Shown piece by piece: positions 1,035 to 48,766 of a stretch of 64,000 nucleotides of DNA. The position numbers and the translations under genes were made by a program. Position 1 is the first letter of the stretch; each line of letters begins with the position of its first letter. The notes beneath the pieces were generated by a model. That model saw nothing but the letters and a program-made list of their open reading frames with translations, was not told the origin of the DNA and ran no database searches. Source of the DNA: an uncultured virus (IMG/VR IMGVR_UViG_3300025653_003319). Lineage: Duplodnaviria > Heunggongvirae > Uroviricota > Caudoviricetes. The stretch lies in the IMG/VR virus record IMGVR_UViG_3300025653_003319; one strand, given 5' to 3'.

Positions 1035-1503
1035 ACTAGTTTTCTTTTTTATGTTGTTATCAGGAGCCGCTGGAGGCTTGTGGTATGTGCAACATCTAAA
1101 AGCAGAAAACGAAATCCTTACACTTAACAATGAGAAACTAAATGGTGCTGTAGAACAACAGCAGGCACTCATACAGCAACAGTTAAGAGATATAGAGTCT
1201 AAGACCGCAATCAATAAAGTATTAAGTGAAAATAATGCTAAACTAACAGCAGACTTAAACTTAGCAAATGAAAAGTTTAACAAAGTAAATGCATCAGGTG
1301 AAAGAAGAGACGTAGGTAACTTGGCTCTAAGTAAACCTAGAAGCATAGAAAGAATAGAACGTAAAAGAGAATCACAAAGAGCAAGGTGTTTTGAAATAGC
1401 ACAAGGCTCGCCACTAACGGAGGAGGAATTAAATGCAACCAAGAAGTCACAGATCAATGCTGAATGTACTAATATTGCCAATCCTAACTATACTCCTTAT
1501 TAG
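1018..1503 (+). CDS. inner-membrane spanin (Rz-like)
   Basis: N-terminal TM helix then a long coiled coil; two C-terminal Cys; 3' end overlaps a lipoprotein gene. Confidence 0.7.
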   Translation: MLGQIKLVFFFMLLSGAAGGLWYVQHLKAENEILTLNNEKLNGAVEQQQALIQQQLRDIESKTAINKVLSENNAKLTADLNLANEKFNKVNASGERRDVGNLALSKPRSIERIERKRESQRARCFEIAQGSPLTEEELNATKKSQINAECTNIANPNYTPY

Positions 1504-1882
1504 TGGATGTAGTACAACTAAGTCATTAGAAATTTTTACTAAAGAAGTAGAGAGAATGCCTCTTAACTTAGAACTACCACCAGTAGAAACATTAGAGCAA
1601 GTAAATGTTATTATTGTAACAAGCAAGAACCAAGAAGAAGTGTTTGCTAAAATGAAAGAAGCAAATATTGATCCTGTGGTATTTGGTTACAGTGATGAAG
1701 ATTGGGAACTTGTAACTAAAAACAATGTAAGAATGCGTAACCAAATTGTAAAACTTAGAGCAATTATAGAAGCATACAAAGAATATTACGAGCCTGAAGA
1801 GCAAGAAGGCAAGAGTAATATGTTTAAAGACTTTGGCACTGACAAAGAGTTTGCGCCAAAAACGTTTAATAAAGACGATTAA
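1457..1882 (+). CDS. outer-membrane lipoprotein spanin (Rz1-like)
   Basis: Signal peptide with lipobox LISG-C (MLNVLILPILTILLISGC); overlaps the i-spanin in another frame; start could be 1433. Confidence 0.7.
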   Translation: MLNVLILPILTILLISGCSTTKSLEIFTKEVERMPLNLELPPVETLEQVNVIIVTSKNQEEVFAKMKEANIDPVVFGYSDEDWELVTKNNVRMRNQIVKLRAIIEAYKEYYEPEEQEGKSNMFKDFGTDKEFAPKTFNKDD

Positions 1883-1885
1883 TAC

Positions 1886-1914
1886 TTGACATTCCTGTCA
1901 TATCTCTGTATAAT
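1886..1914 (+). promoter_or_regulatory. sigma70-type promoter, leaderless (ATG 6 nt after -10)
   Basis: TTGACA-17 nt-TATAAT, then TAGACA and ATG at 1921; no SD. Confidence 0.8.
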
Positions 1915-1920
1915 TAGACA

Positions 1921-2724
1921 ATGGATCACTACCAAACATTGGGGGTAGGCCGCGATGCTGACGCCTCCACTATCAAAAAAGCATATCGCAAATTAGCAAG
2001 TAAGCATCATCCTGACAAAGGTGGTAATCCAGAGGAATTCAAAAGAGTACAAGAAGCATACGATACACTTAGTGACCCAAACAAACGTAATCAGTATGAT
2101 AATCCTAATCCTTTTGAAGGTTTTGGACAAGGCTTTGGCGGAGCCAGTCCTTTTGGAGACATATTTAGAGATATATTTGGACAAAGAGGACAACAACGCA
2201 GAGAGCAAAATTTTGATGCACAAACTGATATACTATTATCATTAGAAGATGTATATAACGGTTCCACACAACGAATCAATGTAGGCACTGGTATGTTAGA
2301 TTTAAAAATACCAAAAGGTGTACAAGAAGGTACACGGTTTACTGTACACGGCAAAGGTCCACAGCAAGACCCAAACCTGCCGCCAGGTGATTTATTTATA
2401 AGAGTAAGATATCGACCACATCCAGAATTTGCAAAAAACGGAAATGATCTTATTGGTATTATACAAATAGATTACCTTGATGCATTAACTGGTGCAACTA
2501 TAGATGTTAGGCACATTAGCGGAAGAATGTTGGCAGTTCATATACCGCCACTTACTGAACCAAATAGCAGACTGAAACTTAGAGGGGAAGGATTTACAGA
2601 TCCTCGCAGTAGCATAGTTGGTAACTTTTTATTACAAGTAGAAGTTATGCCACCTGATTCATTGAGTCATGAGCATGTTCATCTTATACAAAGAATTAAA
2701 CAAGAACGCAGGAGAAACAATTAA
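1921..2724 (+). CDS. DnaJ-class (CbpA-like, no Zn finger) co-chaperone
   Basis: J-domain (DHYQTLGV...[15 protein letters not shown]), G/F-rich linker, DnaJ C-terminal domain. Confidence 0.93.
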
Positions 2725-2732
2725 ATACTATT

Positions 2733-4910
2733 ATGAATGTTGAAGGAATTATAGAAAAGGCTTACGAAATATCTAATCAATTTAGTCATGAGTATATGAC
2801 TCTTGAACATGTTGCATTAGCACTTATTAACGATAGAGAAATCAAAAAAGTGCTAGGTGAATGCAATGTTGATATTAAGCAACTAGAAGCAGATATTGTT
2901 ACATATTTAAATGACGACGAATTTAATAATTTAAAGTCAGAAGGAGGCAACACAGGCAAACCTAAAAAAACAGTAGCAGTTGAAAGAGTATTTCAAAGAG
3001 CATTTGCACAAAGTATTTTTAATGGCAGAGACAAAATATCTGCTATAGATTTACTAGTAAGTATCACCAATGAAGATAACTCGCATAGTGCATACTTTCT
3101 AGCAGTAAACGGATGCCATAGAGAAAACTTATTAGATGTATTAGGCGACGTACACGAAGGCGAATTAGTAGAAGAGTCAGCAGATTACATTAAAAACTTA
3201 AACGAAGAAGCAATGAATGGTAGCATAGATCCACTTATTGGTAGAAGCGAAGAAGTAAATGATGTTGTCGAAATACTTGCAAGGCGTAAAAAGAATAACG
3301 TATGTTTAGTTGGCGAGCCTGGTGTAGGTAAAACTGCTATTGCAGAAGGCATGGCATGGAAGATTATTAACAAGCAAGTTCCTAAAACATTAGAAGATAA
3401 AATTGTGTATCAAATAGACGTTGGTACAATGTTAGCAGGTACAAAATTTAGAGGAGACTTTGAAGAGCGTCTTAAAACGGTATTAGATCAAATTGAAAAA
3501 GATGACAAGGCTATTTTGTTTATTGATGAAATACATATGATCATGGGAGCCGGTAGTGCTGGTAGTAGTCAAGTAGATGCGGCAAACATGTTAAAGCCAT
3601 TGTTAGGTAAAGGTAAACTATTGTGTATTGGTGCAACTACACCAGATGAATTTGCAAGTACATTTGAAAAAGACAGAGCATTGATGCGTAGATTTGCTAG
3701 ACTTGATATAGAAGAAACCACACTTAAAGATACAATTAAGATATGCGAAGGCCTACAACCATACTACGAAGAGTTTCACAAAGTCAAGTATGAAAAAGGT
3801 GCTATAGAAAAAGCATGTGAACTGGCAGATAGATATATTAAAAACAAATACTTTCCTGACAAGGCATTAGACATTGTGGATGCCGCAGGTGCAGTTTCTA
3901 AAGTATTAGGAAAAAAAGTTGTAAATCTTGATTCAGTAGTAACACAGGTATCAAAGATTGCTAAGATTAAAAAAGATGTAGTTGACGTTAAAGACACAAA
4001 AGGCTTTAGTAAATTAGATAGAAAGATTAAAAAGAAAGTGTTTGGTCAAGACGAAGCAGTAGATAAACTTGTAGAAAGTATTCTTGTTAGTAAAGCAGGA
4101 CTTAGAGAGCCTAATAAACCAATTGGTACATTCCTATTTGTAGGACCAACAGGTGTAGGTAAAACAGAAACAGCAAGAGCATTAGCAGACGAATTAGATA
4201 TTAAACTAGTTAAGTTTGACATGTCAGAGTATATGGAAAGACATAGTGTCAGCAAACTTATTGGTGCTCCTCCAGGTTACGTTGGACACGCAGAAGGAGA
4301 ACTAGGACAAGGCATGTTGCTATCTGAAATAGATAAGAATCCTAATTGTGTATTGCTACTAGACGAAGTAGAGAAAGCCGCACCAGAAGTATTACAAGTA
4401 TTGTTACAAGTAATGGATGATGGCAGGCTTACAGGTGCTACAGGTAAAACTGTAGACTTTAGTAATGTTACACTTATAATGACAAGTAACTTAGGTGCCG
4501 CAAAGTCAGAAACAAGTAAAATTGGTTTTGGCGAAACAACACACACTGATACAGATATCAAAGCAGTTAAAAGTTTCTTCACACCAGAGTTTAGAAATAG
4601 AATAGACTCTTATGTTAAGTTTAATAAACTTGGCATGAAAGAAGTTAATCTTATCATTGACAAAATTGTTAAAGAAACAAATGAATTACTACTAAGTAAT
4701 GACAGCAAAATTAGTATAGAACTAACCAAAGCGGCTAAGAAGTATATTGCAGACAATGGATTTGAACCTAGCATGGGAGCAAGGCCGTTGAAAAGACTGT
4801 TTGAAGATGTAGTTAAAAAACCTATCAGTAAAAAAATACTGTTTGATAAAATAGAAGAAGGCGTTGTACTTGTAGATTATATTGAGCAGTTTGAATTTAC
4901 AGTTAAATGA
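2733..4910 (+). CDS. clpA: ATP-dependent Clp protease ATP-binding subunit ClpA
   Basis: Clp N-domain; two AAA+ modules (GEPGVGKT/FIDEIH and GPTGVGKT/LLDEVEKA); GAPPGYVG; ClpP-binding IGF loop; no ClpB coiled coil. Confidence 0.93.
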   Translation: MNVEGIIEKAYEISNQFSHEYMTLEHVALALINDREIKKVLGECNVDIKQLEADIVTYLNDDEFNNLKSEGGNTGKPKKTVAVERVFQRAFAQSIFNGRDKISAIDLLVSITNEDNSHSAYFLAVNGCHRENLLDVLGDVHEGELVEESADYIKNLNEEAMNGSIDPLIGRSEEVNDVVEILARRKKNNVCLVGEPGVGKTAIAEGMAWKIINKQVPKTLEDKIVYQIDVGTMLAGTKFRGDFEERLKTVLDQIEKDDKAILFIDEIHMIMGAGSAGSSQVDAANMLKPLLGKGKLLCIGATTPDEFASTFEKDRALMRRFARLDIEETTLKDTIKICEGLQPYYEEFHKVKYEKGAIEKACELADRYIKNKYFPDKALDIVDAAGAVSKVLGKKVVNLDSVVTQVSKIAKIKKDVVDVKDTKGFSKLDRKIKKKVFGQDEAVDKLVESILVSKAGLREPNKPIGTFLFVGPTGVGKTETARALADELDIKLVKFDMSEYMERHSVSKLIGAPPGYVGHAEGELGQGMLLSEIDKNPNCVLLLDEVEKAAPEVLQVLLQVMDDGRLTGATGKTVDFSNVTLIMTSNLGAAKSETSKIGFGETTHTDTDIKAVKSFFTPEFRNRIDSYVKFNKLGMKEVNLIIDKIVKETNELLLSNDSKISIELTKAAKKYIADNGFEPSMGARPLKRLFEDVVKKPISKKILFDKIEEGVVLVDYIEQFEFTVK

Positions 4911-7287: not shown

Positions 7288-10200
7288 ATGCCAAATGTAA
7301 CAGGAGATAATTTAACTTTTAATATAGACGGGATCACCGATAATCAGATCCTAGTTTACGATTCTACGCAAGGAATTTTTGTAGCACAAGATAGTGTTTC
7401 TGCAGATGCAAACGCCGCCGTTACAGGTGGTAGCAATGTAGGTGCTTCTGGAATAGGCTTATTCTCAGCAAAAGACGGTTCACAATTAAACTTTAAAAAG
7501 ATACAAGGCTCAGGTGCAACTACTGTAACTGAATCTGCAAACGTTATTACTGTTTCCTCAACAGCATATACACTACCAACACCATTAAGCATTCACAATG
7601 TGAATGGCAATACAAATATCTTCTCAGGTAGAAACTTTGGTGATAATGCTAATATCACAGCATACGCAGGTGTATTAAATAACGCAAACTATCCTACACA
7701 CAGTCAAAGTGCAGGATTTGATTCTAAAACAAGATTTGTTATTAGTTCAAACGATGCCGCAGATGTAGAACTTAGTTCACAACATAGTTTATTATTACAA
7801 ACAAAAAGCAGTGATGGACATATAGAAGTTAGAAGTGCAAACAGTACTGTATTTTATGTAGGTAGTGCAAGTAGCACAACACCTGCATTAAAGATAAACC
7901 AAAACAGAAGTTTAACAGTTGCAAATGTATTTACATTACCGACTTCAGATGGTACAAACGGGCAAGTACTTGTAACCAATGGTTCAGGTGCAGTTAGTTG
8001 GACTACTCTAAATACAGGTGGTATAAGTGCAAGTCAACTTAGTGCCAACTTAGCAAATTATATTCCTAAGAGTGCCACAAGTGCACCAGATACCACAATG
8101 TCATATGACATTGGAAACAGCAATTACAAATATTTAAATATATTTGCAAACAGATTTAGAGGAACAGCAGATGCGGCCATTAGATTAGAAGATGGCTCAA
8201 CTATTATTACAGCGGCAACATTAGCCAACGCAGTTATTAAAACAAATAATTTAAGTGACTTACCAAATGCCGCAACAGCAAGAACAAATTTAGGTGTTTA
8301 CAGCAAAGCAGAAGTTGATGCCAATATTGCATCAGCACAATTACAAAATGCTATAAGCACAGTTACTAGTGTTGGTTCAGCAAACACAATCAGTGCCGCA
8401 AGTGCCACCCACGCAATTAGATTTGAAGGTGGAACAGGTATTGGTATAAATCAATATACTGCTAACAATACTATACAGATTTCAAAAACAGATGCTATCA
8501 CAGGTGTATTTAAAAACGTTAGTGCAGATGGCACTCTTCTTATTGCAGACAATAATAACGATACACTTAATTTAGTTAGCGGTAGTAATGTAAGTTTTAC
8601 TGCTAACCCAGGTACAGATACAATTACAATAGATGCTACACTAAACGACAGTAGCATTGACAAGTATACTAAAGCAGAAGTTAATACAGCAATTAGTTCT
8701 AATGTATCTGCATTAAGATATTATAAGAGTTTTACAGGCGATTCAGGTTCTACAGATGCTAGTGCCAAAGACGATACATTTAATATTGTTGGTGGCACAG
8801 GAATAACAACAGTAGTCACTGGCGATACAGTAACAATTAATAATACTCAATTAAATGACGGTATATTTAAAAATATCAGTGTTGCTGGTCAAGATTTAAT
8901 TATTGCAGAAAACAATCAAGATACATTAAACATTGCGGCAGGTAGTGGCATTTCAATTACTGCTGATGCAAGTACTGATACTATTACAATTAATAACACA
9001 GGTTCAGGTGGCGGTGGCGGTAGTGTCAGCGAAGCATTTAAAACTGTTAGTGTACAAGGTGGTAATAGTGTAGTAGCAAATGTAGCCGCAGACCAATTAA
9101 CATTTATAGCAGGTGCTAATGCAACAATATCAGCAGATAGCAATGCACAAACAATTACAATCGATGCTACTGGGGGCGGTGGCGCAGGCGTTAAAGGCGA
9201 TACTGGAGCAACTGGTCCAGCAGGTAGTGACGGAGCAAAAGGACAAAAAGGTGAAGTAGGAGTTGCTGGCGCAACAGGAGCCACTGGACCACAAGGTACT
9301 ATAGGTAATACTGGTCCAGCAGGAGCAGATGGAGCCGCAGGTCAAAAGGGTGACCAAGGAGCACAAGGTGTTGCTGGTAATACTGGAGATAAAGGTGCTC
9401 AAGGCAATACAGGTGCTACAGGCCCAACTGGTGCAACTGGACCAGCAGGTAGCGATGGAGCAAAAGGCGAAATTGGACCACAAGGAAATGTAGGTAGCGA
9501 TGGAGCAAAAGGCGAAGTTGGTGTAACTGGACCACAAGGCGCAACTGGACCAACAGGACCACAAGGACCAACAGGACCTCAAGGTGATAAAGGACAACAA
9601 GGAGCCACTGGTGCTGATAGTAGTGTAGCAGGTCCAACTGGACCAGCAGGACCACAAGGAGACAAAGGAGATACTGGTGCTGATAGTACAGTAGCAGGAC
9701 CACAAGGTCCAGCAGGAGCAAAAGGCGAAGTTGGTGTAACTGGACCAGCAGGACCACAAGGAGACAAAGGAGATACTGGTGCTGATAGTACAGTAGCAGG
9801 ACCAACAGGACCACAAGGAGCCACTGGAGACAAAGGTGCCACAGGACCACAAGGCCCACAGGGTGATGCTGGTAATGATGGTGCAAAAGGACAAAAAGGA
9901 GAATTAGGACCTCAAGGTGCTACTGGACCACAAGGTGGACAGGGTACTAAGGGTGAGGTAGGACCACAAGGAACAGTTGGAGCAACTGGACCAACAGGAC
10001 CTCAAGGAAATGTAGGTGGTACTGGTCCAACAGGAAGTAAGGGCGACAAAGGTGAATTAGGTGGCCCAACAGGACCCACAGGTGATAAAGGACAAAAAGG
10101 TGATACTGGACCACAGGGTTCAGCAGGTGCAGATGGTTCTACAGGATCAGATGGTGCACAAGGACCAGCAGGTGATAAAGGACAAAAAGGTGAAGCAAGT

Positions 10201-10803
10201 ACAGTAGCAGGTCCAACAGGACCAGCAGGTGCAACTGGACCAACAGGACCAGCAGGTAGTGGTAGTGCTATTACTGTACAAGACGAAGGTTCATCATTAG
10301 CAACAGCGGCTTCAACTCTTAATTTTGTAGGTTCGGGTGTTGTTGCATCTGGATCAGGCGCAACTAAAACAATTACAATTAGCGGTGGCGGTGGCGGCGC
10401 AGTAACACGTGGTAACACATACGAAAGATTAAAATTAAATTATAACACATCAGGCGAATTAACAAGTATATCAAATGTCACAGCAGGCATTAATGCTACA
10501 ACAATTACAAGTGCCGCAGGTGCTGAATTAGAAGTTCAATTCACAGGATTTGATTATCCGCCAGTAGCAATTATGGCTCATGGTTATCAGTATGCTTCAA
10601 ACAAGTATAGCATGAACGCAGTAAGCGGAGACTGGACTACTAGAACTGTAGACGGTGGTGGAAGTAGCGGATCACCAACAGCATTTGGTAGTTTCTCTAC
10701 AGATGCTAATGTTGACTTAAAAGTATCAGAAGCCATTACAGGAGCAAGTAGATCGTTTGGAACAAGCACCCATGCTTGGATAACGTTTGTGATGGCGGAG
10801 TAA
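7288..10803 (+). CDS. collagen-like tail/virion fibre protein
   Basis: 1171 aa, G/S/T/A-rich; [12 protein letters not shown] motif; repeated 'DTLNxxxGxxxxxTAxxxTDTITI' units; long Gly-X-Y tract. Confidence 0.85.
9181..10260 (+). repeat. Gly-X-Y collagen-like coding repeat with internal duplications
   Basis: Continuous GGN-NNN-NNN periodicity; near-exact ~60-nt duplication (ggaccagcaggaccacaaggagacaaaggagatactggtgctgatagtacagtagcaggacca) at about 9640 and 9742. Confidence 0.9.
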
Positions 10804-14819: not shown

Positions 14820-14848
14820 TTGACACAGAGGATAAAAGAATGTATAAT
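14820..14848 (+). promoter_or_regulatory. sigma70-type promoter, leaderless
   Basis: TTGACA-17-TATAAT; ATG at 14855 is 6 nt downstream; no SD. Confidence 0.8.
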
Positions 14849-14854
14849 ACATGT

Positions 14855-15451
14855 ATGAAAAATAAAATTATATTAACAGATTGCGATGGCGTAGTATTGG
14901 ACTGGGAGTTTGCATTCCATAATTGGATGGAACACAGAGGACACTTTCCAGTAGAAAATCACAGGTTACATTACAGCATTAGAGAAAAGTTTGATCTAAG
15001 AAACGACTCTACTGGTGATCAAGTAATTAAAAACTTTAATGAAAGTGCGGCAATAGGATTTCTTCCTCCACTTCGTGATGCTCAATACTTTGTTAAGAAG
15101 TTACACGAGCAACATCAATATCAATTTGTAGCAATTACAAGTTTGAGTTTAGACCCTTACGCACAAGAACTTAGAACTAAGAACTTAAATAAACTGTTTG
15201 GTGATGACTGTTTTAAAGAAGTTATTTGTTTAGACACAGGCGCAGACAAAGACCAAATACTGTTAGAATTTGGTAAAAAGTATCCAGGAGCATACTGGAT
15301 AGAAGACAAACCACAGAACGTAGATTGGGGTATTGATGCCGGTCTAAAAGGTATCTTAGTTGAGCATGGACACAATATGCACTATGATGGTACTGCAAAT
15401 GTGTGCAAAACTTGGGAAGAAATATACAATTTAATTGTAGATAAAGGTTGA
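14855..15451 (+). CDS. HAD-superfamily phosphatase/5'-nucleotidase (T4 gp30.2-like)
   Basis: ILTDCDGV (DxDG motif I), ITS, K, IEDK motif IV; start moved to 14855 because the ATG at 14840 lies within the promoter. Confidence 0.8.
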   Translation: MKNKIILTDCDGVVLDWEFAFHNWMEHRGHFPVENHRLHYSIREKFDLRNDSTGDQVIKNFNESAAIGFLPPLRDAQYFVKKLHEQHQYQFVAITSLSLDPYAQELRTKNLNKLFGDDCFKEVICLDTGADKDQILLEFGKKYPGAYWIEDKPQNVDWGIDAGLKGILVEHGHNMHYDGTANVCKTWEEIYNLIVDKG

Positions 15452-15510
15452 CCTCGACCCTATAATTTGCTATAATATATACATAATTTAGCAAACACAG
15501 ACGGTAGGAG
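15448..15510 (+). promoter_or_regulatory. early-class sigma70 promoter plus GTAGGAG RBS
   Basis: (AGG)TTGACC-17-TATAAT at 15448-15476; GTAGGAG at 15504-15510. Confidence 0.8.
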
Positions 15511-29042: not shown

Positions 29043-29240
29043 ATGGCGACAGGAAAAGTAAAATGGTTTGATACCAGCAAAGGTTTTGGATTTATCACAC
29101 CAGACGATGGCAGTAAAGATGTGTTTGCACATCATACAGCAATACAAGGTGAGGGATATAAATCTCTATCAGAGAACCAAGAAGTAACATTTGATGTTGA
29201 GCAAGGTGCGAAAGGACCACAGGCAACAAATATAGTATAA
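29043..29240 (+). CDS. csp: cold-shock protein (CspA family)
   Basis: [25 protein letters not shown] (RNP1/RNP2)...[10 protein letters not shown]. Confidence 0.96.
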
Positions 29241-30843: not shown

Positions 30844-31026
30844 ATGACAGAGACACATTTAAAAATCAAAGCACTCTTTGAAGAGTATGTAAGTGAAAAC
30901 GAAAAATTTAAAGAAGGCCAAGGCGTAAAAGCATCGGCAACAAGAGCAAGGAAGGCATTAATGGAAATTACTAAACTAGCGAAAGTTAGAAGAGGTGAGA
31001 TTCAAGACGCAAAAAATAATGCCTAA
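30844..31026 (+). CDS. small basic histone-H1-like (Hc1-family) DNA-binding protein
   Basis: EKF.EG.GVKASATRARKALMEITKLAKVRR; AGGAG SD. Confidence 0.7.
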   Translation: MTETHLKIKALFEEYVSENEKFKEGQGVKASATRARKALMEITKLAKVRRGEIQDAKNNA

Positions 31027-32741: not shown

Positions 32742-32770
32742 TTGACTTCAACCAGAAAAAGTGGTATAAT
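32742..32770 (+). promoter_or_regulatory. sigma70-type promoter, leaderless
   Basis: TTGACT-17-TATAAT with TG extension; ATG 32777 is 6 nt downstream. Confidence 0.75.
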
Positions 32771-32776
32771 AAAAGC

Positions 32777-33265
32777 ATGGAAAAACTATATTATAGTTGG
32801 GACGATTTAAACAGAGATTGTAGAATTATTGTGCGAGAAATGGCACACGAAAGTTACAAGCCTGAAGTTATTATTGGTCCCGGTAGAGGAGCATATCCGT
32901 TTGGAGTAATGATGAGTCATTACTTCGAAGTGCCATTCGAAGCATTCAGATGGCAAACAAGAGACGGAGCAATCGAAGATTCAGAGACATTAAGACACAT
33001 TTTATCTAAATACAATGATAAACGTGTTTTAGTCGTAGATGATATTAATGATACAGGAACAACACTACAAGGTATTGACAATGTTATCAGAAACTATGTA
33101 GCAGATAATAGCAACATGATGCAACATGCACATCAAGATATTATGTTTTCTACATTGTTTGATAAAGAATCTAGTAGTTTTAATAACGTTGAATTTACTG
33201 CTAATAATGTATTACCAGATCAAGAACGTTGGATAGTGTTTCCGTATGAGGAGTGGTGGAGATGA
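32777..33265 (+). CDS. type I phosphoribosyltransferase (Gpt/xanthine-guanine PRT-like)
   Basis: PRPP-binding VLVVDDINDTGTT; N-terminal YSWDD; C-terminal WIVFPYE as in Gpt. Confidence 0.88.
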   Translation: MEKLYYSWDDLNRDCRIIVREMAHESYKPEVIIGPGRGAYPFGVMMSHYFEVPFEAFRWQTRDGAIEDSETLRHILSKYNDKRVLVVDDINDTGTTLQGIDNVIRNYVADNSNMMQHAHQDIMFSTLFDKESSSFNNVEFTANNVLPDQERWIVFPYEEWWR

Positions 33266-39681: not shown

Positions 39682-39836
39682 AGTATTCTCCTTTTGTAAT
39701 AACCTAACTGCTAGTAGGTTTGCAATAACTTCATCCCTAATGGGCTCTGTTACAGACTATCAAACTCTATGTTACAATTATGTTACAAATGTATTTATCA
39801 TTTGTGCGAAAATCATACAATTTTTACGGAAATAGG

Positions 39837-39893
39837 TTGACCATACCCACAAAATTTAGTATAATATATGCATAATTTGTAAAAAGGTAGGAG
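39837..39893 (+). promoter_or_regulatory. early-class sigma70 promoter plus GTAGGAG RBS
   Basis: TTGACC-17-TATAAT at 39837-39865; GTAGGAG at 39887-39893. Confidence 0.82.
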
Positions 39894-39898
39894 TTTTT

Positions 39899-40372
39899 AT
39901 GTATAAAGTATTTCAAATCAAGTTAAGTGACGAAGTAACAGACTTTGTTAATTCTAATGACAATGGTCATTCAGGTGGTGAAGCCAAGTATCCAGAGTAT
40001 GCGGCACACATGGCCGTGATGCACAAAGGTGCAGAAGGTTTCAAAGGTGAGATGTTCAATCATTACAGCCAAGTATGTGAAGTTGCTCACTTTGAAGACA
40101 GCAACTTAGAAGAAGTATTCAAAATTTTGAATGGTTACTATTTTGATGATGACACTGGTTTAGATCAGTGGTTCGATGCACTTGTTAGTGGTTTCAAAAT
40201 GAAAACAATCACTAGGAAAGATGGTGAAGTTGTTACATATCGTGACATGCATTCTCTTTCAGTTGGCGACATTGTTTTTGATTCAGTAGATGATTCATAT
40301 CACATTGTTGATCGATGGGGTTTCAAGGACATCACTTCAGATGTTCTTTCAGGAGTTCAACAAGTAGCATAA
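39899..40372 (+). CDS. hypothetical protein with YodL-like C-terminus
   Basis: HSLSVGDIV...YHIVDRWGF. Confidence 0.65.
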   Translation: MYKVFQIKLSDEVTDFVNSNDNGHSGGEAKYPEYAAHMAVMHKGAEGFKGEMFNHYSQVCEVAHFEDSNLEEVFKILNGYYFDDDTGLDQWFDALVSGFKMKTITRKDGEVVTYRDMHSLSVGDIVFDSVDDSYHIVDRWGFKDITSDVLSGVQQVA

Positions 40373-40587
40373 TGGAATACGTTGAGTCTTTGGATTATAA
40401 ACTTCGCTATTTAGATAAGTTCAGTGCTAGGGCAGGTAAACATAATTGGTTATCTGACCCTAAGATCTATTCTGATAGCGATGTATTCCTTAGGTTAGAA
40501 CAGTTGCAAGAACTAGGCTATTTGGTTGAATTAACTTTTAATTTGAAAAATACTAAAGAAAAGGTTGACCTTGGTCATGATTTTTAG
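40372..40587 (+). CDS. hypothetical protein
   Basis: MEYVESLDY..., coupled by TAATG. Confidence 0.5.
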   Translation: MEYVESLDYKLRYLDKFSARAGKHNWLSDPKIYSDSDVFLRLEQLQELGYLVELTFNLKNTKEKVDLGHDF

Positions 40588-40621
40588 TATAATAGTTGTA
40601 TATTAAATAATTTCGTAGGAG
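40565..40621 (+). promoter_or_regulatory. early-class sigma70 promoter plus GTAGGAG RBS
   Basis: TTGACC-17-TATAAT at 40565-40593; GTAGGAG at 40615-40621. Confidence 0.82.
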
Positions 40622-40628
40622 TAATTAT

Positions 40629-41708
40629 ATGTCAGATAACATTCGAACAGTAAAACTAAGCAGGGCAAAGAGCCACATCAAACGTGCTTTTAATAAAAAA
40701 CGTCCTGTATTTATTTGGGGTCCTCCAGGAGTTGGTAAGTCCGACGTACTGGCTCAGATCGCTGAAGAAGGTAACAACCTTTTAATTGATTTGAGAATGG
40801 CTTTGCTAGACCCAACAGATATCAAAGGGTATCCTTACAGAGATGAGGACACTAACAAAATGATGTGGGCGGCACCTGCCGAACTACCATCAGAAGAACT
40901 TGCTAGCCAGTATGAGACTGTCTTCTTGTTCTTAGATGAACTTAACTCTGCACCTCCAAGTGTGCAGGCAACTGCTTACCAGTTGATCCTTAACCGTAGG
41001 GTTGGACAATATGTATTACCAGATAACGTGGTAATTGCGGCGGCTGGTAACAGAGACACTGATAAAGGTGTTACTTACAGGATGCCAAGTCCTTTAGCAA
41101 ACAGATTCCTTCACTTAGAAGTTGAAGTTAATCATGACGATTGGCAGTCTTGGGCAGTTGATAACGACATCAATCCAGATGTTGTTGGTTACTTGGCTTT
41201 TGCTAAACAAGACCTTTTTGACTTTGATCCAAAAAGTTCAAGTAGGAGTTTTGCTACTCCTAGGTCTTGGGCATTCGTTAGCCAAATGCTAGAAGACAGT
41301 GACATGACTCATGAAGAGGAAATGGACATTGTTACTGGTTTGGTTGGTGAAGGCATGGCAATCAAGTTTATGAATCACAAGAAGAATGCTTCTAAACTTC
41401 CTAAGCCATCTGAAATCCTTTCAGGTAAGGTCAAAGAGTTGAAGAAGTTAGAAATTTCTTCCAAGTATGCTCTTACTGTAGGTATGAGTTACGAATTAAA
41501 AGGTATCCAAGATAATGGTGATGAGAAAGAACTTACAAGTTCATTCAATAACTTCATCAACTTCTTAATGGATAACTTTGAACCTGAGATGTGTGTATTA
41601 GGTTGTAAAATTGCATTGAGCGAATACGATATTGATGTCGACTTTGCTGATGTAAAACGTATCGATGAATGGGTTGACAGATACGGAAAATACATGAACA
41701 TTGACTAG
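40629..41708 (+). CDS. MoxR-like AAA+ ATPase
   Basis: WGPPGVGKS, LFLDELN, AAGNR, PLANRF, TPRSW. Confidence 0.88.
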   Translation: MSDNIRTVKLSRAKSHIKRAFNKKRPVFIWGPPGVGKSDVLAQIAEEGNNLLIDLRMALLDPTDIKGYPYRDEDTNKMMWAAPAELPSEELASQYETVFLFLDELNSAPPSVQATAYQLILNRRVGQYVLPDNVVIAAAGNRDTDKGVTYRMPSPLANRFLHLEVEVNHDDWQSWAVDNDINPDVVGYLAFAKQDLFDFDPKSSSRSFATPRSWAFVSQMLEDSDMTHEEEMDIVTGLVGEGMAIKFMNHKKNASKLPKPSEILSGKVKELKKLEISSKYALTVGMSYELKGIQDNGDEKELTSSFNNFINFLMDNFEPEMCVLGCKIALSEYDIDVDFADVKRIDEWVDRYGKYMNID

Positions 41709-41715
41709 TTAGTTC

Positions 41716-41756
41716 CTGTGTCGCCAGTTACTCCTACAACCTACATAGCGGCACAG
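41716..41756 (+). ncRNA. putative anti-RBS stem-loop RNA element (candidate 3'-UTR sRNA)
   Basis: Stem CTGTGTCGC/GCGGCACAG encloses a 23-nt loop containing TTACTCCTACAA, complementary to the early-gene GTAGGAG RBS. Confidence 0.45.
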
Positions 41757-41761
41757 ACTAA

Positions 41762-41793
41762 GGGGGGATCTAAACAGGTCCCCCCACCTTTTT
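41762..41793 (+). terminator. intrinsic terminator
   Basis: GGGGGGATC-TAAACA-GGTCCCCCC followed by ACCTTTTT. Confidence 0.75.
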
Positions 41794-41807
41794 CCCAAAA
41801 TAATAGG

Positions 41808-41856
41808 TTGACCACACCCAGTTTTTTTAGTATAATATAAGTATAGTTTGTAGGAG
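41808..41856 (+). promoter_or_regulatory. early-class sigma70 promoter plus GTAGGAG RBS
   Basis: TTGACC-17-TATAAT at 41808-41836; GTAGGAG at 41850-41856. Confidence 0.82.
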
Positions 41857-41864
41857 AACACACA

Positions 41865-43091
41865 ATGAACAATTTAGCACAAAAAACAGATCAAGTAGTT
41901 AAGGACAGATTAATAACTGCTAGAGTGCAATTACTTCTTAAGAATGGTTTCTTTGGTAACTTAGCAACTAGGTTACAATTACAAGAAGCATCCGATTGGT
42001 GCCCGACTGCCGCAACAGATGGCAGATACTTTTTTTATAATACAGAATTTATCCAGTCATTAGATGATGACGAACTTATCTTTTTAATGGGTCATGAGGT
42101 TCTCCATAATGTTTATGATCACATGGATAGACGTGGTAATAGAGATCCTCGTCTTTGGAACATAGCAAATGACTATGTTGTGAACATGGACTTAGTTGAA
42201 AATAATATTGGTAAGAGAATTACCAAAGTTAATATCTGTTTTGACTACAAATATCAAAACTGGATTTCAGATGAGATATACGACGACTTGTACGAGAACG
42301 CAGAAAAGATTACTGAAGAAACACTTGACATGCATTTAGACTTCAGTAATGAAGATGGTGACGGTCAAGGTGCTGAAGGTAAAGGTGAAGGTGGTGATCA
42401 ACAAGACGGGCCACCAAAGTATTCTAAAGAAGAAAGACAACAGATCAATGACGAAGTAAAAGAAGCCGTAATGAATGCGGCCAAAGGTGCTGGTAACAAA
42501 GATCTTCCTAATGGCGTTAGAAAGATGATTAAGGATCTTACTAATCCTGAGTTAGATTGGAGAGAGTTACTTGCTACCAATATTCAAAGTGTTGTAAAGA
42601 ATGACTTTACATTTATGAGACCTGCTAGAAAAGGTATTGCTGAACACGTTTACCTTCCTGGTATGGACTACGACACAGACTTAGATGTGTTCTGCTTTAT
42701 TGATAGTTCCGGTTCTATGTCAGATGAAATGCTTAGAGACCTTCTAAGCGAAGTAAAAGGTTGCATGGAGCAATACACTAACTTCAAACTTAGACTTTGT
42801 TTCTTTGACACATCTACATACACTATTCATGAGTTTGATTCTACTAACGTAGATGACATTTATGATATTGAAATTGAAGGCGGTGGCGGTACTGAGTTTG
42901 ATTGTATGTTTGATAGACTCAAAGAGGAAGACATTGTACCACAGAAGTTAATTGTATTCACAGATGGTTACCCATGGGGTAGTTGGGGCGATGAAACATA
43001 CTGTGATACATTGTTTATAATTCATGGTTCTGGCTACGGTGGCAGAACTCCAGAAGCACCATACGGTGTATCGGTAAAATATAAAGCATGA
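41865..43091 (+). CDS. metallopeptidase-like + VWA domain protein (DUF2201-type MoxR partner)
   Basis: TAATDG, HEVLH (HExxH), WNIANDY.VN; MIDAS DSSGSM...GGGT...FTDG. Confidence 0.88.
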   Translation: MNNLAQKTDQVVKDRLITARVQLLLKNGFFGNLATRLQLQEASDWCPTAATDGRYFFYNTEFIQSLDDDELIFLMGHEVLHNVYDHMDRRGNRDPRLWNIANDYVVNMDLVENNIGKRITKVNICFDYKYQNWISDEIYDDLYENAEKITEETLDMHLDFSNEDGDGQGAEGKGEGGDQQDGPPKYSKEERQQINDEVKEAVMNAAKGAGNKDLPNGVRKMIKDLTNPELDWRELLATNIQSVVKNDFTFMRPARKGIAEHVYLPGMDYDTDLDVFCFIDSSGSMSDEMLRDLLSEVKGCMEQYTNFKLRLCFFDTSTYTIHEFDSTNVDDIYDIEIEGGGGTEFDCMFDRLKEEDIVPQKLIVFTDGYPWGSWGDETYCDTLFIIHGSGYGGRTPEAPYGVSVKYKA

Positions 43092-43423
43092 AGATTCACG
43101 TAAGTAAAAAATTAGGCACAGGTGAACTAGAAGGTTTAAAAGGTACTCTAACCTATGAGAACCTAATGAAAAACAAAATCTGCATTTATTCTAATACAAT
43201 GGAAGACGATACTATATTTGATTTAGTATCGCACTTCGATGAGTATGGACAAGGTTTACTCTATATGTCTACACTTGGTAGCGACAATATATGGAGAATT
43301 TACTTTGAGAACACCGGTGACATGCTTACATTTATAGAGTTAGCCAGAGCACCCAGCAAAAAACCAGATAATATAGGCACAATTGAGTCAGTAGTAGTAA
43401 ATACTACACATGACGCAGAATAA
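43088..43423 (+). CDS. hypothetical protein
   Basis: 111 aa, coupled to the VWA gene. Confidence 0.6.
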   Translation: MKIHVSKKLGTGELEGLKGTLTYENLMKNKICIYSNTMEDDTIFDLVSHFDEYGQGLLYMSTLGSDNIWRIYFENTGDMLTFIELARAPSKKPDNIGTIESVVVNTTHDAE

Positions 43424-44483
43424 CATTCTATGGTCCTGTAATGAATGGGATCCCCTCAAAGAAGTAATAATAGGAACGGCCGTAGACGCCAATATTCCAA
43501 ACGGCGACCTTTCGCACCATGCAACCAACTATGCTAATCTAAGTGCTGAACAGTATGCACAAATGCCTAAGGGTAGATACCCAGAGCATGTATATCATGA
43601 AGCAGAAGAGGATTTAGACGCATTGTGTAACGTTCTAAGCAACGATTTCGGTGTAAAGGTACATAGGCCTAACCTAAATGCTGTAGACTTTACAGCGAAC
43701 GTTAGCAACGGCTTATGGGACACAGACCAATACGAAGCATACTGTCCACGTGATAGTGTTACTGTGATAGGTGACAAAATCATAGAAGGTGCTATGAGTT
43801 TGAGAGCAAGGTATCACGAAACCTTTCTATTCAGAGACCTATTCCAAGAGAAGATGATGGGTGGTGCTAATTGGTTACAAATGCCTAAGCCACGTTTAGA
43901 TGACAGTTTATTTAAAATACAGCCAGGCAGAGACCCAAGTGTAAATAACAACGAACCTATACTAGACCCTGCTAACCTCATACGCATGGGTTACGATATA
44001 CTATACTTGATATCCAATACGGGTAACGAGATGGGTGCTAAGTGGTTACAGAACGCCCTAGGCCCCGACTTTAGAATACATACCATGCATGACTTATATA
44101 GTTGGGCTCATGTAGACAGCACTATTATGCCGTTGAGGCCTGGACTAGTTATATTAAATGCTAGTAGGGTTGATAAGGATAAGGTTCCTGAGATATATAA
44201 AAATTGGGACAAGATTTGGTACACAGAAGAAATGTGTGTTGGCCAACCGTGTTTAGAAGATTATGCTCCAGCAAGTAGTTGGATAGGCATGAATGTACTA
44301 AGTGTGGATCCACAGCATGTACTTGTACCAGATGACGAAATACATTTAATGAAAGCAATGGAACAGAATGGAATAACACCTGTACCTGTCCAAATGCGTC
44401 ATATGAGAACACTAGCAGGTGGTCCACATTGTGTGAGCCAAGACTTAGTTAGAGAAGGCAAGTTAGAAAGTTACTGGAAATAG
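43410..44483 (+). CDS. amidinotransferase (pentein family; glycine/inosamine-phosphate amidinotransferase-like)
   Basis: NEWDPLKEVIIG, CPRD, LDPAN, GN..GA.WL, HVDST, GGPHC (catalytic Asp/His/Cys). Confidence 0.9.
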   Translation: MTQNNILWSCNEWDPLKEVIIGTAVDANIPNGDLSHHATNYANLSAEQYAQMPKGRYPEHVYHEAEEDLDALCNVLSNDFGVKVHRPNLNAVDFTANVSNGLWDTDQYEAYCPRDSVTVIGDKIIEGAMSLRARYHETFLFRDLFQEKMMGGANWLQMPKPRLDDSLFKIQPGRDPSVNNNEPILDPANLIRMGYDILYLISNTGNEMGAKWLQNALGPDFRIHTMHDLYSWAHVDSTIMPLRPGLVILNASRVDKDKVPEIYKNWDKIWYTEEMCVGQPCLEDYAPASSWIGMNVLSVDPQHVLVPDDEIHLMKAMEQNGITPVPVQMRHMRTLAGGPHCVSQDLVREGKLESYWK

Positions 44484-44486
44484 TCA

Positions 44487-44543
44487 TTGACTTGCACCCT
44501 TATTTTTAGTATAATATATGTGTATTAAGTAGTTGAGTAGGAG
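44487..44543 (+). promoter_or_regulatory. early-class sigma70 promoter plus GTAGGAG RBS
   Basis: TTGACT-17-TATAAT at 44487-44515; GTAGGAG at 44537-44543. Confidence 0.8.
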
Positions 44544-47769: not shown

Positions 47770-47824
47770 TTGACCTTGACCCAGTATTTTAGTATAATAG
47801 TTGTATAAATTAAAAAGGTAGGAG
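47770..47824 (+). promoter_or_regulatory. early-class sigma70 promoter plus GTAGGAG RBS
   Basis: TTGACC-17-TATAAT at 47770-47798; GTAGGAG at 47818-47824. Confidence 0.82.
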
Positions 47825-48712: not shown

Positions 48713-48766
48713 TTGACCATTAGTACCTTTTTTAGTATAATAGTTATATAATTAAAAAGGTAGGAG
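48713..48766 (+). promoter_or_regulatory. early-class sigma70 promoter plus GTAGGAG RBS
   Basis: TTGACC-17-TATAAT at 48713-48741; GTAGGAG at 48760-48766. Confidence 0.82.

What the first reader, a model, noticed from the sequence alone, without database searches (positions are those of the whole stretch)
41716..41793. Candidate phage sRNA whose loop is antisense to the RBS shared by the early-class genes
Seen: the 3' UTR of the MoxR ATPase gene has a 9-bp stem (CTGTGTCGC/GCGGCACAG, one G-U) enclosing a 23-nt loop CAGTTACTCCTACAACCTACATA, followed directly by a GC-rich terminator. Seven genes behind near-identical early promoters (15517, 39899, 40629, 41865, 44546, 47834, 48772) all use the RBS GTAGGAG. 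Most other SD-led genes use AAGGAG, CAGGAG or TGGAG; the one other GTAGGAG start noticed is 19760. The loop's CTCCTAC is the exact complement of GTAGGAG, extending to 10 nt against the moxR RBS (GTAGGAGTAA) and 9 nt against the VWA RBS (TTGTAGGAG). Known: the usual anti-SD pairs with TAAGGAGG, so the 5' GT is not explained by ribosome pairing, and C-rich loop seeds plus a terminator are typical of base-pairing sRNAs. Inference: an early transcript's own 3' end may act in trans to shut off or tune translation of the whole early regulon, while leaderless and late genes escape.
Basis: partly seen in the sequence, partly recalled or inferred. Interest (0 to 1): 0.82.

Follow-up and report, generated by a model that had tools for sequence, protein, structure and literature searches.

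The report
Anti-RBS hairpin on phage moxR mRNA
Just after an ATPase gene (moxR) of an uncultured giant phage lies a conserved RNA hairpin whose open loop is the mirror image of the ribosome-landing site of that gene and of its neighbour, so it probably limits their translation by base pairing.

Summary
A 9-bp stem (41716-41724 / 41748-41756) holds a 23-nt loop, followed by an intrinsic terminator (41762-41795). The loop is the only minus-sense GTAGGAG in the window. It complements the moxR leader over 10 nt and the next gene's leader over 9 nt.

The hairpin is a real, conserved RNA element with no Rfam match. All 41 related uncultured-phage loci with a readable moxR 3' flank carry it, down to about 52% MoxR identity. 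The loop core GTTACTCC is invariant. The stems differ completely but stay paired: 8 of 10 pairs show double-sided changes in one ungapped alignment.

Four further clades lack this hairpin but also place a complement of moxR's own ribosome site in the moxR 3' UTR, each with a different sequence.

Across six contigs the constant matches are moxR and the downstream VWA-like gene. Other early leaders match in four contigs, including this window (7 of 9 promoter-proximal versus 4 of 45 other SD-led genes).

Best reading: an icaR-like anti-RBS 3' UTR acting on moxR and its neighbour. A regulon-wide sRNA remains possible here but unproven. No stable RNA, RNA end or repression was shown.

This scan reached similar readings on related DNA (e1-6081729, e1-6001215).

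The parts
40565..40593 (+). Consensus sigma-70-type promoter of moxR (TTGACC, 17-nt spacer, TATAAT)
   Evidence: 11 of 12 hexamer matches. Conserved in relatives.
40615..40624 (+). moxR leader and ribosome-binding site GTAGGAGTAA, the 10-nt partner of the loop; start codon at 40629
   Evidence: Duplex with the loop -17.5 kcal/mol, target opening cost 1.8 kcal/mol.
40629..41708 (+). MoxR-like AAA+ ATPase gene (359 aa)
   Evidence: ORF. Pfam AAA_5, E 1.2e-4; 49.6% identity to the ATPase of Pseudomonas jumbo phage PA5oct.
41716..41724 (+). 5' arm of the hairpin (CTGTGTCGC)
   Evidence: In 9 distinct close relatives, 100% of cells in this helix pair, and the 3 one-sided changes all give G-U or U-A pairs.
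41725..41747 (+). 23-nt loop. TTACTCCTAC (41728-41737) is antisense to the moxR leader. CTCCTACAA (41731-41739) is antisense to the next gene's leader. A second CCTAC repeat lies at 41740-41744.
   Evidence: The stretch is predicted unpaired (p 0.36 for the 10-mer, 0.86 for the 9-mer). The core GTTACTCC is invariant in the 26 distinct relatives' sequences tabulated.
41748..41756 (+). 3' arm of the hairpin (GCGGCACAG)
41762..41795 (+). Intrinsic terminator (GGGGGGATCT / AGGTCCCCCC stem, then a T-run)
   Evidence: It is the top-listed terminator-like site, with the most pairs (10) and G-C pairs (7), on either strand in 36-54 kb. My own + strand scan found only one other convincing intergenic site in the window, at 14788.
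41808..41836 (+). Consensus promoter of the downstream gene
   Evidence: Positions from -10 through the RBS are invariant in 9 distinct close relatives.
41848..41856 (+). Leader and RBS TTGTAGGAG of the downstream gene, the 9-nt partner of the loop
   Evidence: Duplex -17.8 kcal/mol including flanking pairs. The reverse strand of this region gives weak hits to the hairpin model in 5 of 6 close-clade loci; the sixth, L008, had a minus-strand hit overlapping the hairpin instead (E 0.011-0.13).
41865..43091 (+). Gene for a DUF2201_N metallopeptidase-like plus VWA-like (DUF2201) protein, the usual partner type of MoxR ATPases
   Evidence: E 8e-43 and 1e-10.
39887..39893 (+). GTAGGAG leader of gene 39899 behind consensus promoter 39837 (8-nt loop complement GTAGGAGT)
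44537..44543 (+). GTAGGAG leader of the Metallophos phosphoesterase gene 44546 (8-nt complement)
47818..47824 (+). GTAGGAG leader of gene 47834 (7-nt complement)
48760..48766 (+). GTAGGAG leader of the ATP-dependent DNA ligase gene 48772 (8-nt complement)
15504..15510 (+). GTAGGAG leader of gene 15517 behind consensus promoter 15448 (7-nt complement)

Best explanation
The hairpin is a conserved regulatory element at the 3' end of the phage moxR mRNA. Its stem holds open a pyrimidine-rich loop (UUACUCCUAC AACCUAC) that base-pairs with the translation-initiation leader of moxR itself. That pairing could be with the same molecule or with another copy. The loop also pairs with the leader of the adjacent VWA-like partner gene.

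Pairing covers the Shine-Dalgarno sequence and the spacer. The most likely effect is therefore to block 30S binding, and perhaps to change mRNA decay. This would cap or balance the output of the MoxR/VWA pair once full-length moxR transcripts accumulate.

Shown here: the structure, its conservation and covariation, the complementarity, and its recurrence with different sequences in other clades.

Inferred: that pairing happens in vivo, that it represses rather than stabilises, and whether it acts in cis or in trans.
For: **1. Structure**
- Both hairpins appear in the MFE and centroid fold, z -4.5.

**2. Family-wide conservation**
- All 16 of 16 loci with MoxR at 90% identity or more and a readable 3' flank keep the hairpin.
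- All 25 of 25 loci around MoxR relatives of G002 with a 3' flank have a hairpin plus terminator with the loop core GTTACTCC. Those proteins are 64-100% identical to G002's, and G002's is itself 52% identical to the window's.
- The exact 18-mer of the loop occurs in 18 IMG/VR contigs, once each, including two (G002, G003) with only 52-53% MoxR identity.
- An unconstrained fold puts the motif in the large loop in 22 of 26 distinct sequences.

**3. Covariation**
- There are 18 distinct stems with 183 pairs, 18 of them G-U. Those would be A-C mismatches on the other strand.
- In an ungapped MAFFT alignment of 6 sequences (5 distinct) with a 10-bp stem, 98% of cells pair and 8 of 10 pairs change on both sides.
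- In the same alignment 0 of 500 shuffles reach the observed pairing or covariation score, slid controls give 14-42% pairing, and 27 of 28 loop columns are invariant.

**4. Complement to moxR's own leader recurs with different sequences**
- Window clade: GTAGGAGTAA, 10 nt.
- L023/25/26: AGAGTTAGGCT, 9-11 nt.
- L027/28: AGGAGCGCAA, 9-10 nt.
- L029/30/32: AGGAGCAAC, 7-9 nt.
- L034-37: TCCACAACA, 8-9 nt.
- Shuffle p is 0.01 or less for 20 of the 23 positive rows (0.03, 0.10 and 0.03 for L014, L029 and L030). Self pairs beat every cross-clade pair in those rows.
- In the 79-kb contig of L028, the 10-mer and its complement each occur once, 1.1 kb apart.

**5. Two-part complementarity**
- Several moxR leaders carry two separate blocks complementary to adjacent parts of the loop (TAGGTTG near the 5' end, plus the RBS).
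- 15 of 73 leader-loop pairs have two or more separate complements of at least 6 nt, against a mean of 1.7 (maximum 5) with shuffled loops.

**6. Constant partners**
- moxR and the downstream gene are the constant matches in six whole contigs.

**7. Energetics**
- Loop-leader duplexes are -17.5 (moxR) and -17.8 (next gene) kcal/mol, with opening costs of 0.1-2.6 kcal/mol.
- The same leaders give about -7 kcal/mol against a canonical 16S tail, a short motif I recalled.

**8. Background**
- CTCCT occurs only 14 times on the + strand, against about 38 expected from base composition by my hand estimate, which no call computed. Only this copy lies in a predicted intergenic hairpin.
- Anti-SD-like sequences far from the RBS repress and are depleted in bacterial genes (PMC12697547, abstract read).
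Against: - There is no direct evidence of pairing, of repression or of RNA ends. The four metatranscriptome runs are contigs only. Contigs stop at 41750/41751 in two runs and at 41780 in one, and a contig bridges the site in the fourth. The stops lie next to the polymorphic 3' part of the loop, so they may be assembly breaks.
- In L014/L015 the moxR spacer changed (GTAGGAGCAA) without a matching change in the loop (8 nt left).
- Groups C and D carry an extra C in the loop (CUCCCUAC) that no leader mirrors.
- One clade at 54-57% MoxR identity (L020/21/22/24/33), L045 and cultured phage PA5oct show no 5'-3' complement.
- Loop pairing in cis is pseudoknot-like and only about 10 bp long. That is too short for the RNase III route described for icaR.
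- Transcription start sites are inferred from promoter consensus only.
Confidence: 0.55

Rival explanations
1. The hairpin plus terminator accumulates as a 3'-UTR-derived small RNA. It acts in trans on all leaders that carry GTAGGAG, shutting off or tuning the whole early class, while leaderless and late genes escape.
For: **Class enrichment**
- SD-led genes within 110 nt of a consensus promoter have a complement of at least 7 nt to their own genome's loop in 35 of 43 distinct RBS regions. The figure is 6 of 74 for SD-led genes without a promoter (Fisher p 4e-16, pooled loci).
- Per whole contig: window 7/9 vs 4/45, G002 6/9 vs 8/44, G006 5/10 vs 1/26, G009 4/9 vs 1/23.

**RBS flavour tracks the loop**
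- GTAGGAG where the loop reads CUCCUAC.
- (T)TAAGGAGTAAC(A) where it reads (U)GUUACUCC followed by CUCCCUAC.
- AGGTAGG where CCUACCU is used.

**Loop conservation beyond moxR's needs**
- The core GUUACUCC stays invariant in L174-L178, whose own moxR leader does not use it, while other leaders there do (TTAGGAGTAAC).

**Plausible seeds**
- Seeds of 7-8 nt with duplexes of -11.8 to -13.8 kcal/mol are in the usual sRNA range.
- 3'-UTR-derived ncRNAs are reported in phage PAK_P3 (PMC10914365, passages read).
Against: - In G008 (3/12 vs 11/81, p 0.38) and G007 (2/4 vs 3/36) essentially only moxR and its neighbour match.
- In the clades with a linear anti-RBS, the complement fits moxR's own leader better than the neighbour's, and in the one contig checked (L028 clade) it is unique.
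- The matching genes in this window form one 9-kb cluster of similar promoter-leader cassettes, so shared sequence may be by descent.
- The counts include homologous genes from related genomes and rest on about four independent groups.
- No processed RNA species is shown.
Confidence: 0.25
2. The hairpin has a function that does not depend on pairing with leaders. It could protect the 3' end, assist the terminator, or be a binding site for a protein, for example the phage's own cold-shock-domain protein. On this view the complementarity to ribosome sites comes from pyrimidine-rich versus purine-rich composition.
For: - Tandem hairpins at 3' ends are common.
- The phage encodes a cold-shock-domain (CSD) protein at 29043-29237.
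- The extra C in group C/D loops and the uncompensated change in L014 show that the complementarity is imperfect.
Against: - A purely structural role does not explain 27 of 28 invariant loop columns beside a freely covarying stem.
- It does not explain an 18-mer kept at 52% protein identity.
- It does not explain complements that extend 4-6 nt beyond the SD core with p of 0.01 or less in five clades with different sequences.
- It does not explain the two-part match to two separate leader blocks.
Confidence: 0.15
3. The shared GTAGGAG of the early leaders is explained apart from the hairpin. It could be a recognition site for a phage factor that acts on early mRNAs, as T4 RegB cleaves within GGAG of early messages. 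Or it could simply be inherited with duplicated promoter-leader cassettes.
For: - T4 RegB cleaves in GGAG of early mRNAs and needs extra sequence context (PMC1702504; only the search listing with the start of the abstract was seen).
- The seven cassettes share the -35 and -10 elements and AT-rich leaders, and six of them lie within 9 kb.
Against: - No RegB- or RegA-like family was found among 90 + strand ORFs scanned against Pfam. About half of them have no Pfam hit, so this is weak evidence.
- This rival does not explain why the exact antisense of the motif sits in a conserved loop.
- It is compatible with the best explanation rather than exclusive of it.
Confidence: 0.2

Closest known systems
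icaR mRNA 5'-UTR/3'-UTR interaction of Staphylococcus aureus (PMC3868564, abstract read)
   Same: An anti-SD motif in the 3' UTR of an mRNA pairs with the Shine-Dalgarno region of the same mRNA, which is expected to block the initiation complex.
   Different: - icaR has a long 3' UTR, and its pairing creates an RNase III substrate.
- Here the 3' UTR is about 90 nt, and the anti-SD is displayed in a 23-nt hairpin loop next to the terminator.
- The duplex is about 10 bp, and a second gene's leader is also matched.
- It is in a phage and is untested.
hly 3' UTR pairing with the prsA2 5' UTR in Listeria (PMC8722363, abstract read), and the hbs 5'/3'-UTR pairing in B. subtilis (PMC5737220, abstract read)
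   Same: The 3' UTR of a full-length mRNA pairs with a 5' leader, either its own or that of a functionally linked gene. This couples the expression of two partners.
   Different: In those cases pairing protects the mRNA from RNases and so stabilises it. Here the pairing covers the ribosome site, so repression is the more likely sign, but stabilisation is not excluded.
c4 antisense RNA of phages P1 and P7 (review PMC12197685, passages read)
   Same: A phage-encoded structured RNA presents complementary sequences in loops that bind around the ribosome-binding site of a phage mRNA and block translation.
   Different: c4 is a processed immunity RNA of temperate phages that targets ant. There is no sequence or structure match here: no Rfam family, c4 included, reaches threshold. 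This element is the tail of an mRNA in a large, apparently virulent phage.
3'-UTR-derived base-pairing sRNAs of bacteria, and the 3'-UTR-derived ncRNAs seen in phage PAK_P3 (PMC10914365, passages read)
   Same: A conserved seed lies just upstream of the parent mRNA's own intrinsic terminator.
   Different: No processed species, processing site or chaperone is known here. The function of the PAK_P3 ncRNAs is itself unknown.

Membership tests
5'-3' UTR anti-SD interaction (icaR type) | The 3' UTR of the mRNA carries a sequence complementary to its own Shine-Dalgarno region | tested here: met
   10-nt complement, with 0.3% of shuffles reaching it. It recurs with other sequences in four further clades.
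5'-3' UTR anti-SD interaction (icaR type) | Pairing blocks the initiation complex and/or creates an RNase III substrate | not testable with these tools
   Needs toeprinting, reporters and RNase assays. A duplex of about 10 bp is short for RNase III.
3'-UTR-derived trans-acting sRNA | Shares the parent gene's intrinsic terminator and has a conserved single-stranded seed | tested here: met
   (loop unpaired probability 0.36-0.86).
3'-UTR-derived trans-acting sRNA | A stable short RNA species exists, made by processing or from an internal promoter | tested here: inconclusive
   RNA-library contigs cover the region but cannot show ends or levels. No promoter match better than 9 of 12 lies in the last 200 nt of moxR.
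3'-UTR-derived trans-acting sRNA | Several mRNA targets share the seed match | tested here: inconclusive
   Enriched in 4 of 6 contigs. Essentially only moxR and its neighbour match in the other 2.
Any curated RNA family (Rfam 15, including phage c4) | Match to a covariance model at the gathering score | tested here: not met
   0 matches in the whole window. The permissive scan of 41600-41900 gave only noise, with E of 2.6 or more.
Intrinsic (Rho-independent) terminator | G+C-rich stem-loop followed by a T-run | tested here: met
   10-bp stem with 7 G-C pairs, then ACCTTTTTCC. It is conserved with variable loops in relatives.
Conserved structured RNA (general criterion) | Base pairs are kept through compensatory changes | tested here: met
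   8 of 10 pairs change on both sides, and 0 of 500 shuffles reach the observed pairing or covariation score. There are 18 distinct stems.

The most novel reading that the evidence does not exclude
The moxR tail is released as a small RNA. Its multi-repeat loop (CCUAC units with different flanks) would act as a phage-made stand-in for the ribosome's anti-SD. It would bind the distinctive leaders of a whole set of early genes and switch them off together once enough moxR transcript has been made. That would be an RNA counterpart of the protein-based early shut-off of T4 (RegA, RegB), and it would explain why early leaders in these phages carry extended, lineage-specific ribosome sites that co-vary with the loop.
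Probability: 0.25. Interest if true: 0.85.

Novelty: new variant of a known kind. Interest (0 to 1): 0.62.

Why it matters
Post-transcriptional control in large lytic phages is almost unmapped. In bacteria only a few cases are known where an mRNA's tail pairs with a ribosome site.

Here the design recurs across many uncultured jumbo-phage lineages, sometimes with the same loop and sometimes with unrelated sequences. That argues it is selected, and it offers a compact natural 'translation brake'.

It can be tested with plain reporter fusions in a laboratory host. If it works in trans it would be a new way for a phage to time its early genes, and a ready-made part for synthetic control of translation.

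Tried and rejected
- **Known phages, DNA level.** Megablast of 40600-43100 found no match. The window's own assembly is not held. The nearest record, G001, is 99% identical and uninformative for covariation.
- **tRNA or tmRNA.** None in the window.
- **Rfam.** Nothing at the gathering score or in a permissive scan.
- **Minus-strand gene using the loop's GTAGGAG as its SD.** Rejected. No ATG, GTG or TTG lies at a usable distance, and the listed minus ORFs start 30 nt away or upstream. The G-U pairs also favour the + strand.
- **Covariance model from the six close-clade sequences (R1).** It was too narrow: strong hits only in that clade and E 0.16-0.65 for groups B and D. I therefore did not use its alignment for pair counts.
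- **MAFFT alignment of 15 hairpins (A2).** It misaligned the 3' arms and was not used.
- **The 14-mer CTCCTACAACCTAC in IMG/VR.** It matched 89 stretches. Of the 80 fetched, 17 had the hairpin context and the rest were coding-sequence chance hits.
- **The 17-mer in genome contigs.** Five hits, none with a hairpin or terminator, so no clue to the host.
- **PA5oct and Phosso moxR genes.** PA5oct has no 5'-3' complement (4 nt). Phosso has 8 nt, p 0.023, which is not convincing.
- **General habit of this genome?** 8 of 90 genes have a complement of at least 9 nt to their RBS region somewhere in their own mRNA, against 3 of 90 in the reversed control. Only moxR's lies in the 3' UTR and covers a real SD.
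- **RNA-library contigs.** Places without cover and the depth step across the terminator (21-32 before, 7-11 after) cannot be read as expression or termination.
- **Internal GTAGGAG/ACTCCTA hairpin in the moxR coding region.** Not conserved.
- **Host 16S tail.** Non-promoter genes of the same phage do not use GT before AGGAG.
Full report
**What is in the window**

- Eight bases after the moxR stop codon (41706-41708) a 9-bp stem (41716-41724 with 41748-41756, one G-U pair) closes a 23-nt loop, CAGTTACTCCTACAACCTACATA.
- Five bases further on lies a G+C-rich stem-loop with a T-run (41762-41795).
- Folded as RNA, 41700-41800 gives exactly these two hairpins in both the MFE and the centroid structure. 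The energy is -35.5 kcal/mol, z is -4.5, and 0 of 200 shuffles fold as well.
- This terminator is the top-listed terminator-like site, with the most pairs and G-C pairs, in 36-54 kb. My own + strand scan finds only one other convincing intergenic terminator in the window, at 14788.
- moxR is thus a unit with its own promoter (40565-40593) and its own terminator.
- Pfam supports the gene names only in part. The 'MoxR' protein is a weak AAA_5 hit. The next gene is DUF2201_N plus the VWA-like DUF2201.
- The best cultured relative of the ATPase is in Pseudomonas jumbo phage PA5oct, at 49.6% identity.
- The nearest held record is a fragment that CheckV rates at 19% complete. The phage is therefore probably a jumbo phage of some 350 kb.

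**The GTAGGAG class**

- GTAGGAG occurs 10 times on the + strand. Its single reverse copy is the loop. The total of 11 compares with 4.6 +/- 2.2 in shuffles, and 0 of 100 shuffles reach 11.
- All 12 consensus promoters lie on the + strand, and seven of them are followed by GTAGGAG and a start codon.
- Of the other five, three have an ATG six bases after the -10 element. One has an ATG seven bases after the -10 and a GGAG-led ATG at 26865. One uses CAGGAT.
- Among 29 other-wise detected AGGAG-led starts the two preceding bases are scattered.
- The host ribosome therefore does not seem to demand GT.
- The host itself could not be identified.

**The hairpin is a conserved structured RNA**

- IMG/VR holds graded relatives. 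All 16 loci with MoxR at 90% identity or more and a readable 3' flank keep the hairpin.
- Among 9 distinct sequences, the first 20 loop positions vary at one column. The promoter spacer, the terminator loop and the 3' end of the loop vary freely.
- The three stem changes in that set all keep pairing through G-U or U-A.
- The exact 18-mer GTTACTCCTACAACCTAC was then found in two contigs (G002, G003) whose MoxR is only 52-53% identical.
- A search with that protein gave 26 more loci, at 64-100% identity to it.
- All 25 of those with a 3' flank carry a hairpin plus terminator with the loop core GTTACTCC.
- An unconstrained fold puts the motif in the large loop in 22 of 26 distinct sequences. Three others pair it instead with a GGGAG just after the stop codon, and one uses a shorter closing helix.
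- The stems differ completely between lineages. There are 18 distinct stems with 183 pairs, 18 of them G-U. Those would be mismatches on the other strand.
- In an ungapped MAFFT alignment of six group C sequences, not fitted to any structure:
  - the 10-bp stem is 98% paired, and 8 of 10 pairs change on both sides;
  - 0 of 500 shuffles reach the observed pairing or covariation score;
  - slid controls give 14-42% pairing;
  - 27 of 28 loop columns are invariant.
- No Rfam family matches.

**What the loop pairs with: its own mRNA**

I compared each moxR leader (-30 to +3) with its own 3' region.

| Clade | Complement to own leader | Length |
|---|---|---|
| Window clade | GTAGGAGTAA | 10 nt (8 in L014/L015) |
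| L023/25/26 | AGAGTTAGGCT | 9-11 nt |
| L027/28 | AGGAGCGCAA | 9-10 nt |
| L029/30/32 | AGGAGCAAC | 7-9 nt |
| L034-37 (weaker case, inside the terminator) | TCCACAACA | 8-9 nt |

- The last four clades lack this hairpin altogether.
- Shuffle p is 0.01 or less for 20 of the 23 positive rows. The exceptions are L014 (0.03), L029 (0.10) and L030 (0.03).
- In a 9 x 9 matrix the self pair is the best in each positive row. It scores 9-11 (8 for L014, tied with one cross pair) against 8 or less for cross pairs.
- In the 79-kb contig of L028 the 10-mer and its reverse complement each occur once, 1.1 kb apart.
- The complement extends 4-6 nt beyond the SD core into gene-specific spacer. That extension is what makes it improbable by chance.
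- Within the window this is not a general habit. Only moxR has such a complement in its 3' UTR over a real SD.
- In group B, and in parts of group D, the moxR leader has two blocks: TAGGTTG near the predicted 5' end, and the RBS. These are complementary to adjacent parts of the loop.
- This explains why the second half of the loop (AACCUAC) is conserved. 15 of 73 leader-loop pairs have two separate complements of at least 6 nt, against a mean of 1.7 with shuffled loops.

**What the loop pairs with: other leaders**

- The next gene's leader is also matched in all groups. The matches are TTGTAGGAG in groups A and B, GGAGTAAC(A) in group C and AGGTAGG in group D.
- The hairpin model gives weak hits on the reverse strand of that leader in 5 of 6 close-clade loci. 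In L008 the minus-strand hit overlapped the hairpin instead.
- Pooling the loci, SD-led genes close behind a consensus promoter carry a complement of at least 7 nt to their own loop in 35 of 43 distinct RBS regions. Other SD-led genes do so in 6 of 74.

On whole contigs the picture is mixed:

| Contig | Promoter-proximal SD-led genes with a complement of 7 nt or more | Other SD-led genes |
|---|---|---|
| Window | 7/9 | 4/45 |
| G002 | 6/9 | 8/44 |
| G006 | 5/10 | 1/26 |
| G009 | 4/9 | 1/23 |
| G008 | 3/12 | 11/81 |
| G007 | 2/4 | 3/36 |

- In G008 and G007 essentially only moxR and its neighbour match.
- In this window the matching genes are six neighbours within 9 kb, plus 15517. They include a phosphoesterase and a DNA ligase.
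The conserved core is moxR plus its partner gene.

**Energetics**

- The loop stretch is predicted mostly unpaired (p 0.36-0.86).
- Duplexes with the moxR and next-gene leaders are -17.5 and -17.8 kcal/mol, with opening costs of 0.1-2.6 kcal/mol.
- Other GTAGGAG leaders give -11.8 to -13.8 kcal/mol.
- The same leaders against a canonical 16S tail give about -7 to -11 kcal/mol. That tail is a short motif I recalled, so these values are only a rough yardstick.
- The loop could therefore compete with the ribosome, most clearly at moxR and its neighbour.

**Expression**

- 20 of the 21 listed public runs hold at least part of 39800-44500, and 17 of those are on record as RNA.
- Four metatranscriptome runs from four studies were laid. 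They are contigs only.
- In two runs a contig stops at 41750/41751, and in one at 41780. In the fourth a contig bridges the site.
- The stops lie next to the polymorphic 3' end of the loop and may be assembly breaks.
- This shows the region is present in RNA libraries and nothing more.

**Mechanism proposed**

- *Shown:* a + strand RNA hairpin under selection, a constrained loop, and complementarity to the moxR leader (and the neighbour's) that recurs with different sequences.
- *Inferred:* once RNA polymerase has transcribed the 3' UTR, the loop pairs with the SD and spacer of moxR, in the same molecule or another. It also pairs with the partner gene's leader. This blocks 30S binding.
- Translation would then be largely confined to the nascent transcript, or would fall as moxR RNA accumulates, keeping the ATPase and its VWA-like partner low or balanced.
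- The sign (repression versus protection from RNases, as for hbs and hly-prsA2) is open. So is the mode, cis versus trans.

**Comparison with known systems**

- The closest is the icaR 5'-3' UTR interaction (PMC3868564, abstract). The defining complementarity is met, but the biochemical features were not testable.
- The hly-prsA2 and hbs cases (PMC8722363, PMC5737220, abstracts) show 3' UTRs pairing with leaders of the same or a linked gene.
- Phage c4 RNA (PMC12197685, passages) shows loops pairing around a phage RBS.
- A 2025 preprint shows that distant anti-SD-like sequences repress and are depleted (PMC12697547, abstract).
- Searches for a described phage element of this kind listed none. 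They cover open-access papers and bioRxiv only.

**Earlier notes of this scan**

Two earlier reports on related DNA (e1-6081729, e1-6001215) reached much the same reading. I saw them after my own tests. They are AI notes and not independent evidence.

**Verdict**

- It is a new, conserved phage RNA element of a known functional kind (an anti-RBS 3' UTR) and has not been tested experimentally.
- Confidence is 0.55 for action on moxR and its neighbour, and 0.25 for class-wide action in trans.

Noticed in passing
window 1886-1923, 14820-14857, 32742-32779: Three consensus promoters are followed by an ATG only six bases after the -10 element (ATG at 1921 for a DnaJ-like gene, at 14855 and at 32777). 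These are candidate leaderless mRNAs in a phage that otherwise uses strong SD sequences.
   Followed up: partly
window 29043-29237 and 30844-31023: The phage encodes a cold-shock-domain protein (CSD, E 6e-30) and an Hc1 histone-H1-like protein (E 7e-11). The first is an RNA chaperone type that could bear on RNA-RNA pairing.
   Followed up: no
window 804-4907: Acyl-carrier-type PP-binding, DnaJ and ClpB-like (AAA_2, ClpB_D2-small) genes lie side by side. This is a chaperone set, unusual for a phage.
   Followed up: no
window 7288-10800: A 1171-aa protein with collagen triple-helix repeats (E 2.5e-43), presumably a fibre. It holds one of the two internal GTAGGAG copies, at 9256.
   Followed up: no
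L170-L173, L183, L186: first 12 nt after the moxR stop codon: Group C relatives have an SD-like GGAGAGG or GGGAGAG directly after the stop codon. It is complementary to the loop's CUCCC. In 3 of 26 folds it pairs with the loop instead of the stem forming. This is a possible switch that a terminating ribosome could flip.
   Followed up: partly
window 41797-41870 minus strand; also L005, L010, L013, L014 (L008's minus-strand hit lies elsewhere, overlapping the hairpin): The hairpin covariance model gives weak reverse-strand hits over the downstream promoter and leader (15-18 bits, E 0.011-0.13). The loop is thus antisense to more of that leader than the 9-nt exact match.
   Followed up: partly
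window 41242-41262: Inside the moxR coding region, GTAGGAGT and ACTCCTA form a small local hairpin: an internal SD-like site masked by its own anti-SD. The CTCCT there encodes a conserved Thr-Pro, but the GTAGGAG half is found only in the window (L005 has GCAGGAG), so the hairpin is not conserved.
   Followed up: yes
G006:C1:44594-44610 (+): A second near-copy of the group C loop motif (3 mismatches) lies on the strand opposite to the moxR copy. I did not examine it.
   Followed up: no
window 39833, 41804, 48709 and others: TAGGTTG, the complement of the loop's CAACCTA, also forms the upstream edge of the -35 element (aTAGGTTGACC) at several of the consensus promoters. It would be transcribed only in read-through RNA.
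   Followed up: no
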